DNA of 64,000 nt from Escherichia coli. Lineage in GTDB: Bacteria > Pseudomonadota > Gammaproteobacteria > Enterobacterales > Enterobacteriaceae. The stretch lies in NCBI RefSeq assembly GCF_016026235.1, contig NZ_CP065613.1. One strand, given 5' to 3'. Every line of letters begins with the position of its first letter. The first letter of the stretch is position 1. Positions 18,001 to 21,000 of the stretch are shown piece by piece. The position numbers were made by a program.

Positions 18001-21000
18001 GGAGCTGGAGGCGTACATCAATGTGGTAAAACACTTTAACCGTAGCGGTCAGTTGCGTTACTACCCCGGTTCACCGTTGATTGCCCGTCAGTTACTGCGT
18101 GAACAGGACAGCCTGCAACTGACCGAACTGCACCCGAGCGATTACCCGTTGCTACGTTCTGAATTTCAGAAAGACAGCCGTGCGCGCGTCGAAAAATCCG
18201 ACGGTTTCCAGCAGCTTAAGGCCAAACTGCCGCCGGTTTCTCGCCGTGGTTTAATCCTTATCGATCCGCCGTATGAAATGAAAACCGACTATCAGGCGGT
18301 AGTCAGCGGGATAGCAGAAGGTTACAAACGTTTTGCCACGGGCACTTACGCATTGTGGTATCCGGTGGTGCTGCGTCAGCAAATCAAGCGCATGATCCAC
18401 GACCTGGAAGCGACCGGTATTCGCAAAATTCTGCAAATTGAACTGGCGGTACTGCCAGACAGCGATCGCCGTGGCATGACCGCTTCCGGCATGATTGTGA
18501 TTAACCCGCCGTGGAAACTGGAACAGCAGATGAATAACGTGCTGCCGTGGCTGCACAGCAAACTGGTTCCAGCTGGCACCGGGCACGCCACCGTAAGCTG
18601 GATCGTGCCAGAGTAATTGCAGCCATTGCTGGCACCTATTACGTCTCGCGCTACAATCGCGGTAATCAACGATAAGGACACTCTGTCATGACTAAACACT
18701 ATGATTACATCGCCATCGGCGGCGGCAGCGGCGGTATCGCCTCCATCAACCGCGCGGCTATGTACGGCCAGAAATGCGCACTGATTGAAGCCAAAGAGCT
18801 GGGCGGCACCTGCGTAAATGTTGGCTGTGTGCCGAAAAAAGTGATGTGGCACGCGGCGCAAATCCGTGAAGCGATCCATATGTACGGCCCGGATTATGGT
18901 TTTGATACCACTATCAATAAATTCAACTGGGAAACGTTGATCGCCAGCCGTACCGCCTATATCGACCGTATTCATACTTCCTATGAAAACGTGCTCGGTA
19001 AAAATAACGTTGATGTAATCAAAGGCTTTGCCCGCTTCGTTGATGCCAAAACGCTGGAGGTAAACGGCGAAACCATCACGGCCGATCATATTCTGATCGC
19101 CACAGGCGGTCGTCCGAGCCACCCGGATATTCCGGGCGTGGAATACGGTATTGATTCTGATGGCTTCTTCGCCCTTCCTGCTTTGCCAGAGCGCGTGGCG
19201 GTTGTTGGCGCGGGTTACATCGCCGTTGAACTGGCGGGCGTGATTAACGGCCTCGGCGCGAAAACGCATCTGTTTGTGCGTAAACATGCGCCGCTGCGCA
19301 GCTTCGACCCGATGATCTCTGAAACGCTGGTTGAAGTGATGAACGCCGAAGGCCCGCAGTTGCACACCAACGCCATCCCGAAAGCGGTAGTGAAAAATGC
19401 CGATGGTAGCCTGACGCTGGAGCTGGAAGATGGTCGCAGTGAAACGGTGGATTGCCTGATTTGGGCGATTGGTCGCGAGCCTGCCAATGACAACATCAAC
19501 CTGGAAGCAGCTGGCGTTAAAACTAACGAAAAAGGCTATATCGTCGTCGATAAATATCAAAACACCAACATTGAAGGTATTTACGCGGTGGGCGATAACA
19601 CGGGTGCAGTAGAACTGACACCGGTGGCAGTTGCAGCGGGTCGCCGCCTCTCTGAACGCCTATTTAATAACAAGCCGGATGAGCATCTGGATTACAGCAA
19701 CATTCCGACCGTGGTCTTCAGCCATCCGCCGATTGGTACTGTTGGTTTAACGGAACCGCAGGCGCGCGAGCAGTACGGCGACGATCAGGTGAAAGTGTAT
19801 AAATCCTCTTTCACCGCGATGTATACCGCCGTCACCACTCACCGCCAGCCGTGCCGCATGAAGCTGGTATGCGTTGGACCGGAAGAGAAGATTGTCGGTA
19901 TTCACGGCATTGGCTTTGGTATGGACGAAATGTTGCAGGGCTTCGCGGTGGCACTGAAGATGGGCGCAACCAAAAAAGACTTCGACAACACGGTTGCCAT
20001 TCACCCAACGGCGGCAGAAGAGTTCGTGACAATGCGTTAAATGTTAAAGGGCAAAGAGTGGTGTGCTCTTTGCCCTTAATTACGTTTCCGCTATCAGTTC
20101 AGAAGCTGAAGCAGAAAGCGGATCAGTTCCAGCAGCGCAATTAACGCCCCAAGAACGATGATTGCTTTATCAATCACCCGTGTTCTCCATACGATGGAGT
20201 GAGAATGCATCCGCTTACTCATCCATTGCCTGTCACGGCGCATGCCCTATTGTTAGATAATGGCATTCTCACTCCGGCCAGAGCATCAGTTAACGGCACC
20301 ACCCGTACCACTGATCAGGACTTTGAAAGCGTTTATGCGCATTGCCAGAGTGAAAATGCCTCAGAGCCAACTGGATAATCATACAGTATATTCAGGTTAT
20401 AAAACCAGCATGTCCTTGCAATAGTTTCAGTATGGTATTAGCATTGATGCGTTAGATGATGGCATTCTCACTCCAGCCAGAGCCACCAACTCAGGTCTGG
20501 AAAGTAAAAAACCGACGCAAAGTCGGTTTTTTTACGTCCTGATTCAGACCTCCTTTCAAATGAATGCCCAACGCTTAATTCACACCTATACCTTTCTCTA
20601 CACTTACATATTCGTTAAGTCATATATGTTTTTGACTTGTCCGCTTCAAAGAGAGACACTACCTGCAACAATCAGGAGCGCAATATGTCATTTCTGTTAC
20701 CCATCCAATTGTTCAAAATTCTTGCTGATGAAACCCGTCTGGGCATCGTTTTACTGCTCAGCGAACTGGGAGAGTTATGCGTCTGCGATCTCTGCACTGC
20801 CCTCGCTCAGTCGCAGCCCAAGATATCCCGCCATCTGGCGCTACTTCGTGAAAGCGGGCTATTGCTGGACCGCAAGCAGGGAAAGTGGGTTCATTACCGC
20901 TTATCGCCGCATATTCCAGCATGGGCGGCGAAAATTATTGATGAGGCCTGGCGATGTGAACAGGAAAAGGTTCAGGCGATTGTCCGCAACCTGGCCCGAC

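What the first reader, a model, noticed from the sequence alone, without database searches (positions are those of the whole stretch)
20094..20545. dinQ toxin peptide with two tandem agr antisense repeats
A 27-codon hydrophobic peptide ORF (GTG start) on the minus strand is followed on the plus strand by two copies of a ~33-nt repeat (20252-20284 and 20462-20494). Both are complementary to gatggagtgagaatgcat in the dinQ 5' region, and the second ends in a strong intrinsic terminator. This is the type I toxin-antitoxin arrangement (dinQ-agrAB) known from K-12, visible directly in the sequence and invisible to the ORF track.
Basis: partly seen in the sequence, partly recalled or inferred. Interest (0 to 1): 0.4.

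Follow-up and report, generated by a model that had tools for sequence, protein, structure and literature searches.

The report
dinQ toxin with one agr antitoxin

Summary
The gor-arsR spacer (20041-20684) holds the known dinQ/agr type I toxin-antitoxin locus. The 27-codon GTG-start DinQ ORF (20094-20177, minus) is real, matches the NCBIfam DinQ equivalog, and is identical in all 21 loci compared, with 6 synonymous and 0 nonsynonymous changes.

The repeat pair is real but misplaced and misread. The copies lie at 20252-20284 and 20451-20483, not 20462-20494. Only the second is an agr gene (20452-20535, Rfam AgrB, 103 bits, with terminator). The first lies inside the dinQ 5' leader and, read on the minus strand, is the AgrB target (G88-A119).

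K-12 has three copies: leader, agrA and agrB. This strain lacks one 231-bp agr unit. Its single agr is a chimera of a proximal-type promoter and antisense end with a distal-type stem-loop, terminator and flank. It pairs with its own leader as well as K-12 AgrB does (30 Watson-Crick pairs, 1 G-U, 1 mismatch).

It pairs with the leader within the same mRNA and has the same sense as agr RNA, so agr does not bind it.

At least 14% of 5426 complete E. coli genomes share the one-agr form. The system is known, so interest is low.

The parts
20094..20177 (-). dinQ coding sequence: 27 codons plus stop, GTG start at 20177. Encodes a single-transmembrane toxic peptide.
   Evidence: PGAP annotation in the identical strain EC1515. 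NCBIfam NF041472 toxin_DinQ, 54 bits against a cut-off of 30. Peptide identical in 21 loci, with 6 synonymous and 0 nonsynonymous sites.
20041..20371 (-). Full-length (+1) dinQ transcript, 331 nt. +1 is at 20371. The 5' end of the processed, translatable '+44' form is at about 20327.
   Evidence: Placed by anchoring the published SD G184-G187 and elements 1-4 (PMC5066626) on the sequence. The length comes out at exactly 331 nt and there are no indels relative to K-12. The ends are inferred by homology, not measured in this strain.
20047..20077 (.). Hairpin just after the gor stop codon. It serves as the gor terminator and the putative dinQ terminator (bidirectional).
   Evidence: 14-bp stem; I3. 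PMC3567139 places the dinQ terminator a few nt downstream of the gor stop.
20185..20190 (-). dinQ 'sequence 4' (A182-G187), including the Shine-Dalgarno GGAG (20185-20188).
   Evidence: mapped to PMC5066626.
It pairs either with sequence 4 (SD closed) or with sequence 2 (SD open).
   Evidence: In this allele the 2:3 helix extends to 13 bp (20196-20208 with 20263-20275), against about 10 bp in K-12.
20253..20284 (-). The agr target in the dinQ leader (mRNA G88-A119). It contains 'sequence 2' (G94-G106, 20266-20278) and the hypervariable block (mRNA 106-113).
   Evidence: Called the 'agrAB repeat of dinQ' in PMC3567139. AgrB binds G88-A119 (PMC5066626).
20344..20356 (-). dinQ 'sequence 1' (U16-C28). 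It locks sequence 2 in the full-length, untranslatable transcript.
   Evidence: The 1:2 duplex is present in the +1 MFE, at -33.1 kcal/mol here against -23.3 in K-12.
20369..20388 (-). LexA operator 1 (TACTGTATGATTATCCAGTT on the minus strand; CTG-N10-CAG core at 20371-20386). It overlaps the dinQ -10 (TATGAT, 20378-20383) and +1.
   Evidence: The 20-mer is identical to K-12's. Its operator status comes from PMC3567139 (HI 4.83). LexA binding was not tested here.
20416..20444 (+). agr promoter: -35 TTGCAA (20416-20421), 17-nt spacer, -10 TAGCAT (20439-20444). It is of the agrA (proximal) type.
   Evidence: Read from the sequence. Identical to the K-12 agrA upstream region. At 8/12 matches it falls below the threshold of the scan. 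Inferred by homology.
20452..20535 (+). The single agr antitoxin sRNA, 84 nt. It has an unpaired antisense 5' end (20452-20483), stem-loop 1, and a terminator hairpin (20506-20532) with a U tail.
   Evidence: Rfam RF02891 AgrB, 103.2 bits (gathering score 40), and the only match in the 64-kb window. Fold z = -3.82. The duplex with its own dinQ target has 30 Watson-Crick pairs, 1 G-U and 1 mismatch, at -58.1 kcal/mol.

Best explanation
The region is the SOS-inducible dinQ/agr type I toxin-antitoxin module of E. coli, in a one-antitoxin form.

How it works (mechanism taken from K-12 experiments and mapped onto this sequence):
1. LexA represses dinQ through the operator at 20369-20388.
2. After DNA damage, a 331-nt mRNA is made (20371 to 20041, minus strand). 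It cannot be translated, because sequence 1 pairs with sequence 2 and sequence 3 pairs with sequence 4, burying the Shine-Dalgarno site.
3. Removal of the first 44 nt frees sequence 2, which captures sequence 3. The Shine-Dalgarno site opens and the 27-aa membrane-depolarising peptide is translated from GUG.
4. The constitutive 84-nt agr RNA (20452-20535, plus strand) pairs through its first 32 nt with leader positions G88-A119 (20284-20253). That displaces sequence 3, so the Shine-Dalgarno hairpin re-forms, and the duplex becomes an RNase III substrate.

What differs from K-12:
- There is one agr gene, not agrA plus agrB. It is a chimera. The promoter and antisense end are of the promoter-proximal (agrA-position) type. 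The stem-loop, terminator and 3' flank are of the distal (agrB-position) type.
- It most likely arose by a 231-bp deletion through recombination between the two paralogues.
- Its antisense end has co-varied with this strain's leader allele, so it is predicted to act as the functional antitoxin.

Shown here: the anatomy, homology, complementarity, predicted folds and population frequencies. Inferred: transcript ends, expression, toxicity, and the direction of the copy-number change.
For: - Locus identity: gor/dinQ/arsR are annotated in the identical strains EC1515 and FDAARGOS_943 and in K-12.
- Toxin: DinQ equivalog hit. All six CDS variants in 21 loci are synonymous.
- Repeat layout: K-12 has three copies, at +76, +275 and +506 from the GTG. 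The window has +76 and +275 only and lacks exactly one 231-bp unit.
- agr assignment: Rfam AgrB matches only 20452-20535, while both agrA and agrB of K-12 match it. The agr fold has z = -3.82, against -0.36 for the plus strand of copy 1.
- Published elements map without indels and give a 331-nt mRNA (PMC5066626).
- Fold predictions reproduce the switch: 1:2 plus 3:4 in +1, 2:3 in +44, and 3:4 again when 88-119 is blocked. The probability that the SD is unpaired falls from 0.20 to 0.05.
- Duplex energy: -58.1 kcal/mol, equal to K-12 AgrB/dinQ at -58.2. K-12 AgrA/dinQ is -42.7 and is experimentally inactive (PMC5066626).
- Chimera: the window's leader plus promoter is 99.3% identical to two-copy strains L010 and L008. 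Its agr matches L010's proximal copy up to a crossover between nt 24 and 41, and the distal copy beyond that.
- Age of the two-copy state: it is shared with E. whittamii, including a gor-derived relic in the spacer.
- Frequency: the agrA-agrB spacer is absent from 29% of 5426 genomes, and at least 768 genomes keep the dinQ promoter without the spacer.
Against: - There are no expression data for this strain. All transcript ends come from K-12.
- ViennaRNA does not predict a clearly open SD in the +44 form (probability unpaired 0.20). For K-12 +44 it does not even predict the published 2:3 helix, so the fold support is qualitative.
- E. albertii and Escherichia sp. E1V33 have a single agr, so a single copy could be ancestral rather than a deletion. 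Both origins predict the same flanks.
- The locus is a recombination mosaic: gor identity to L010 is 96.6% while leader identity is 99.3%. This weakens arguments based on the nearest relative.
- The class counts come from subtracting separate BLAST searches, not from per-genome classification.
Confidence: 0.9

Rival explanations
1. One reading: the two plus-strand repeats are the 5' ends of two antisense RNA genes, agrA (20252-) and agrB (20451-), arranged as in K-12. Both would act by pairing with the dinQ segment gatggagtgagaatgcat.
For: The two copies are 31/33 identical, and both are reverse-complementary at the DNA level to 20195/6-20208. K-12 does have two agr genes.
Against: - K-12's agrA lies +275 from the GTG, which is where the window's second copy sits. 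The +76 copy also exists in K-12, inside dinQ.
- Copy 1 has no agr-type promoter, stem-loop or terminator, gives no Rfam hit at E<=1, and folds with z = -0.36.
- It lies inside the mapped dinQ transcript.
- A plus-strand agr RNA has the same sense as dinQ mRNA at 20193-20210, so the two cannot pair. The published target is G88-A119 (PMC5066626).
Confidence: 0.03
2. Same parts, different history: the single agr is the ancestral, never-duplicated state retained in this lineage, not a secondary agrA x agrB deletion.
For: E. albertii and Escherichia sp. E1V33 each have a single agr at +275 with the arsR-side flank. A never-duplicated gene would also have proximal-type upstream and distal-type downstream flanks.
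Against: - Two copies, with the same gor-derived relic in the spacer, occur in E. whittamii and in 71% of E. coli. This implies a duplication older than E. coli.
- The window's leader is 99.3% identical to two-copy strains. Its agr switches from their proximal-type to their distal-type diagnostic bases partway through the gene.
- One-agr loci occur on at least three different haplotype backgrounds (window, L004 and L011), each resembling a different two-copy relative. For example, L004 looks like L006 or L021 minus one unit.
Confidence: 0.25
3. The locus is decaying in this strain. The chimeric agr, or dinQ itself, would be non-functional, so what remains is a relic rather than a working toxin-antitoxin pair.
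For: - Repeat-mediated deletions do inactivate the locus in other strains. L003 has lost both promoters.
- Up to about 810 genomes lack the dinQ promoter region.
- K-12 AgrA is regarded as degenerate (PMC3567139).
Against: Every functional element is intact here:
- The LexA box 20-mer is identical to K-12's.
- The -10 element, sequences 1-4, the SD, the GTG and the peptide are all present.
- The agr promoter is identical to K-12 agrA's, which is expressed in K-12.
- The full Rfam-scoring agr with its terminator is present, and its complementarity is as good as AgrB's.

Confidence: 0.05

Closest known systems
dinQ-agrAB locus of E. coli K-12 (Weel-Sneve et al. 2013, PMC3567139; Kristiansen et al. 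2016, PMC5066626)
   Same: - Same chromosomal site (gor-arsR).
- Identical DinQ peptide and identical LexA operator 20-mer.
- Same 331-nt mRNA length, and the same four switching elements at the same positions.
- Same 84-nt agr architecture, and the same single A-C mismatch at agr nt 24.
   Different: - One agr gene instead of two (231 bp shorter). It is a chimera of the proximal and distal types.
- The 8-nt variable block of the target and antisense differs: AATGGCAT/GATGGCAT here, AAGAACTC in K-12 dinQ and agrB.
- In this allele that block also lengthens the predicted helices: 1:2 is 17 bp and -33 kcal/mol (13 bp and -23 in K-12), and 2:3 is 13 bp (10 in K-12).
- Cross-strain agr/dinQ duplexes are predicted to be as weak as the inactive K-12 AgrA pair (-41 to -50 kcal/mol).
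tisB-istR1 (SOS-induced type I toxin-antitoxin of E. coli)
   Same: - LexA-controlled toxin mRNA that is inert until its 5' end is processed.
- A divergently transcribed, constitutive trans-acting antisense RNA pairs in the 5' leader far upstream of the ribosome binding site and triggers RNase III cleavage.
- The toxin is a small inner-membrane depolarising peptide.
The comparison is drawn in PMC3567139.
   Different: - The sequences and peptide are unrelated.
- From established knowledge, IstR-1 blocks a ribosome standby site, whereas agr re-closes an SD hairpin by displacing a competitor strand.
- The tisB locus has no repeat triplet.
dql (dinQ-like) genes of Enterobacteriaceae (PMC5066626; NCBIfam NF041473 DqlB)
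   Same: Related peptides, with 5' UTRs that carry the same four mutually exclusive elements.
   Different: The window peptide scores as DinQ proper (54 bits) and only 14.9 bits against the DqlB model, below its cut-off of 35. dql loci lie elsewhere on chromosomes and on plasmids.

Membership tests
dinQ/agr type I toxin-antitoxin system | Small hydrophobic toxin peptide belonging to the DinQ equivalog | tested here: met
   NCBIfam NF041472, 54 bits against a cut-off of 30. Identical to WP_001295215.1, annotated as DinQ in all sampled genomes.
dinQ/agr type I toxin-antitoxin system | Located in the gor-arsR intergenic region, with dinQ convergent to gor | tested here: met
   gor 18688-20040 (+), dinQ 20094-20177 (-), arsR from 20685 (+).
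dinQ/agr type I toxin-antitoxin system | LexA operator overlapping the dinQ promoter (SOS control) | tested here: met
   CTG-N10-CAG at 20371-20386. The 20-mer is identical to the K-12 operator (PMC3567139). This is sequence evidence only; LexA binding and induction are not testable here.
dinQ/agr type I toxin-antitoxin system | Divergent agr sRNA matching Rfam AgrB (RF02891) with an intrinsic terminator | tested here: met
   20452-20535, 103.2 bits against a gathering score of 40, full length 1-84. Fold z = -3.82.
dinQ/agr type I toxin-antitoxin system | About 31-nt near-perfect antisense match between the agr 5' end and dinQ leader G88-A119 | tested here: met
   30 Watson-Crick pairs, 1 G-U and 1 mismatch over 32 nt; -58.1 kcal/mol.
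dinQ/agr type I toxin-antitoxin system | Four leader elements able to form the mutually exclusive pairings 1:2, 2:3 and 3:4 | tested here: met
   The elements sit at the published positions. The MFE switches partners as in the published model. SD accessibility itself is only weakly resolved by the prediction.
dinQ/agr type I toxin-antitoxin system | Toxicity of DinQ and its neutralisation by agr; small transcripts expressed | not testable with these tools
   Shown for K-12 only (PMC3567139, PMC5066626).
K-12-type agrA + agrB pair (two paralogous sRNA genes) | Two terminated agr genes 231 bp apart, downstream of the dinQ promoter | tested here: not met
   There is one Rfam AgrB match in the window against two in K-12. 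A 231-bp unit is absent.
agr sRNA gene (for the first repeat, 20252-20284) | Own promoter, stem-loop 1 (CCACCAACUCAGG loop region) and terminator after the repeat | tested here: not met
   No Rfam hit at E<=1. The sequence after the repeat is dinQ leader, not an agr body. Fold z = -0.36 with no terminator. It is positionally homologous to the K-12 leader copy.

The most novel reading that the evidence does not exclude
The three direct repeats (dinQ leader target, proximal agr, distal agr) may behave as an evolving specificity module.
- An 8-nt hypervariable block (dinQ mRNA 106-113, agr nt 7-14) exists in at least six alleles.
- In each genome the leader allele matches one agr copy, but which copy varies. 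It is the distal copy in K-12, D10 and WP9-S17, and the proximal copy in str124, 1428, O157:H7 146N4 and O20:H12.
- So 'AgrA is a degenerate pseudo-antitoxin' would be specific to K-12.
- Because the target and antitoxin are direct DNA repeats transcribed in opposite directions, gene conversion between them would preserve RNA complementarity automatically. Crossing-over between them gives one-agr forms like this window, or promoterless dead loci like L003.
- The window's allele additionally strengthens both intramolecular helices (1:2 and 2:3).
Probability: 0.45. Interest if true: 0.35.

Novelty: already known. Interest (0 to 1): 0.15.

Why it matters
As a discovery it matters little. dinQ/agr has been characterised since 2013, has Rfam and NCBIfam models, and is annotated by PGAP. 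T1TAdb already notes that only some strains carry AgrA (PMC8594479).

The practical value is corrective:
- The leader repeat must not be counted as an sRNA gene.
- The K-12 labels agrA and agrB do not transfer by position to other strains.
- A "DinQ" CDS annotation can sit in a locus that has lost both promoters.

The natural alleles could serve as ready-made specificity variants for studying how a trans-antisense RNA and its competing intramolecular strands co-evolve.

Tried and rejected
1. O157:H7 TR01 (one agr) against O157:H7 146N4 (two agr) as proof of a recent deletion. Rejected, because their flanks differ (leader 95.9%, arsR 93.8%), so the loci are not isogenic.
2. Simple terminator and promoter scan. 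It missed both the agr terminator and the agr promoter. It reported only a plus-strand promoter-like site at 20350-20379, at chance frequency, so I did not use it.
3. Pfam scan of the 27-aa and 49-aa peptides. No family matched.
4. Counting architectures directly from BLAST coverage. Not possible, because split matches are joined into one place. I used subtraction of three searches instead, which gives bounds rather than exact counts.
5. L014 looked like a genome with only a poorly matching agr. It is a contig truncated before the distal copy, so I excluded it.
6. ViennaRNA SD-accessibility as a quantitative test. It does not recover the published 2:3 helix for K-12 +44, so I treat it as qualitative only.
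7. A scan of one genome per species with an agr pattern found only Escherichia, plus two apparent contaminant contigs. E. fergusonii and E. marmotae were not hit, which may be due to pattern mismatch or true absence. This is unresolved.
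Full report
**Observation**

The region lies between a glutathione reductase gene (gor, 18688-20040, +) and arsR (from 20685, +). The stretch 20000-20700 is 100% identical to E. coli EC1515, and 18700-22300 is 100% identical to FDAARGOS_943. PGAP annotates 20094-20177 (-) there as "damage-inducible type I toxin DinQ".

- The 27-codon GTG-start frame is the tail of a 49-aa ORF listed at 20094-20243.
- The 33-nt direct repeat is real: 20252-20284 and 20451-20483, 31/33 identical, 2 hits against 0 expected.
- The 13-nt core GCATTCTCACTCC occurs three times: twice on the plus strand in the repeats and once on the minus strand at 20196-20208, against 0.05 expected.

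**What the parts are**

K-12 MG1655 is annotated with dinQ, agrA and agrB. Its spacer contains three copies of the 34-nt element, at +76, +275 and +506 nt from the dinQ GTG. The +275 and +506 copies are the 5' ends of agrA and agrB.

The window has only the +76 and +275 copies. The pairwise alignment shows a clean absence of 231 bp, which is exactly the agrA-to-agrB period.

- Rfam's AgrB model (RF02891) matches both K-12 genes (106 and 108 bits). In the window it matches only 20452-20535 (103 bits), and that is its only match in the whole 64 kb.
- The RNA from 20452 folds with a free 5' end, a stem-loop and an 11-bp terminator hairpin (z = -3.82). The equivalent plus-strand stretch from the first repeat folds no better than shuffles (z = -0.36) and has no terminator.

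**Mapping the published mechanism**

I anchored the published Shine-Dalgarno site (G184-G187). That puts dinQ +1 at 20371, inside the LexA operator, whose 20-mer is identical to K-12's. The resulting mRNA is 331 nt long, ending at the gor stop, as published.

| Element (PMC5066626) | mRNA positions | Window coordinates |
|---|---|---|
| Sequence 1 | U16-C28 | 20356-20344 |
| AgrB target | G88-A119 | 20284-20253 |
| Sequence 2 | G94-G106 | 20278-20266 |
| Sequence 3 | U167-U178 | 20205-20194 |
| Sequence 4 / SD | A182-G187 | 20190-20185 |

In the processed +44 mRNA it pairs within the molecule with sequence 2, which opens the SD. agr RNA has the same sense as sequence 3 and competes with it for sequence 2. 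It does not pair with sequence 3.

ViennaRNA folds of this allele reproduce the partner switching:
- The +1 form shows 1:2 and 3:4.
- The +44 form shows 2:3.
- The +44 form with 88-119 blocked shows 3:4 again, and the probability that the SD is unpaired falls from 0.20 to 0.05.

The prediction is only qualitative, because for K-12 +44 it fails to recover the published 2:3 helix.

**Is the single agr a plausible antitoxin?**

Its first 32 nt form 30 Watson-Crick pairs, 1 G-U and 1 mismatch with this strain's leader.

| agr / dinQ pair | Duplex energy (kcal/mol) |
|---|---|
| Window agr / window dinQ | -58.1 |
| K-12 AgrB / K-12 dinQ | -58.2 |
| K-12 AgrA / K-12 dinQ (inactive in vitro and in vivo) | -42.7 |

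(PMC5066626)

Its promoter region is identical to K-12 agrA's, which is expressed in K-12 (PMC3567139). All functional elements of dinQ are intact. Across 21 loci, including E. albertii, E. whittamii and Escherichia sp. E1V33, the peptide is invariant. The six variable CDS sites are all synonymous.

**Origin and population context**

- The agrA-agrB spacer is present in 3842 of 5426 complete E. coli genomes.
- The dinQ promoter and leader are present in 4610 genomes, and some part of the locus in 5422.
- So about 71% have two agr genes, at least 768 (14%) have the dinQ promoter but no spacer (this window's type), and up to about 810 (15%) lack the dinQ promoter.

The window's agr is chimeric relative to its closest sampled two-copy relatives, whose leader plus promoter is 99.3% identical. 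It has proximal-copy bases up to a crossover between nt 24 and 41, and distal-copy bases and flank after that. One-agr loci occur on at least three haplotype backgrounds, each resembling a different two-copy strain.

The two-copy state is shared with E. whittamii, together with a gor-derived relic in the spacer. I therefore favour a secondary 231-bp deletion by agrA x agrB recombination, at about 0.7. E. albertii and E1V33 have one agr, so ancestral retention is not excluded.

The O157:H7 TR01 and 146N4 pair initially looked like a recent deletion. I rejected it because their flanks are not isogenic.

**Variation worth noting**

An 8-nt block (mRNA 106-113, agr nt 7-14) is the most variable part of the leader. 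It co-varies with one agr copy in each genome. That copy is the distal one in K-12, D10 and WP9-S17. It is the proximal one in str124, 1428, O157:H7 146N4 and O20:H12.

In strain 99-3311 both copies match about equally (-56.9 and -57.3 kcal/mol). Cross-strain pairs are predicted to be as weak as the inactive AgrA pair. Multi-site blocks that are identical between the leader and one agr copy suggest gene conversion among the direct repeats. This is inference.

**Comparison with what is known, and verdict**

Every defining feature of the dinQ/agr system that sequence can test is met. The K-12-specific feature of two paralogous agr genes is not. T1TAdb already states that only "some bacterial strains" carry AgrA between dinQ and AgrB, and it selects the asRNA with the most stable interaction (PMC8594479).

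Novelty is "already known" and interest is low (0.15). A modest residual interest lies in the allele co-variation and the repeat-mediated rearrangements.

Noticed in passing
L001:2186-2221 (K-12), and the corresponding spacers in L005, L007, L009, L010, L017 and L018; homologous to window 19773-19828: In two-agr genomes, the spacer between agrA and agrB contains a 40-61-nt stretch 75-87% identical to the 3' coding part of gor, in the same orientation. The blastn E-value reaches 9e-16 for E. whittamii. So the second agr unit arose together with a gor fragment, not by a simple tandem duplication. The passages I read in PMC3567139 do not mention it.
   Followed up: partly
L003:1595-1950 (strain 09A19CPO009); H23 and H24 have the same span: The agr body is fused directly to the dinQ leader at the +76 repeat. 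This is a 199-bp deletion between the leader repeat and agr, and it removes both the dinQ/LexA promoter and the agr promoter. PGAP still annotates the stranded CDS as DinQ. Up to about 810 of 5426 genomes lack the dinQ promoter region.
   Followed up: partly
Leader mRNA 106-113 (window 20259-20266) and agr nt 7-14 (window 20458-20465), compared across L001-L022: An 8-nt hypervariable block has at least six alleles. The agr copy that best matches the leader is the distal one in some strains and the proximal one in others. So the K-12 labels agrA (inactive) and agrB (active) do not transfer by position.
   Followed up: partly
L003, L010, L011 (downstream of agr): In several strains arsC follows the agr region directly, so arsR and arsB are deleted. 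The window keeps arsR (from 20685) and arsB (from about 21072).
   Followed up: no
L013 (Acinetobacter haemolyticus, 424-nt contig) and L016 (Lachnospiraceae MAG, 1061-nt contig): Short contigs filed under unrelated taxa carry E. coli-type agr or dinQ sequence. L016's DinQ peptide is identical to E. coli's. This is probably E. coli contamination in those assemblies.
   Followed up: no
window 44837-44950 (+), 38987-39058 (+), 29285-29316 (-): Other Rfam matches above gathering score in the window: GadY sRNA (150 bits), ES205 sRNA (105 bits), and the shuA/chuA 5' UTR thermoregulator (60 bits). The last implies a chu haem-uptake locus in this strain.
   Followed up: no
window 20350-20379 (+): The only sigma-70-like consensus match in the spacer (GTGAAA-18-GATAAT, 9/12) lies on the plus strand, overlapping the dinQ +1/LexA operator region. 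It occurs at chance frequency (1 found, 1.1 expected), and the papers I read describe no transcript from it.
   Followed up: no
window 20241-20243 (-), mRNA 129-131: The ATG that opens the 49-aa ORF version includes a site (mRNA 130) that varies among the 21 loci, whereas the 27-aa part never changes at the protein level. This is consistent with the GTG-start peptide being the real product.
   Followed up: partly
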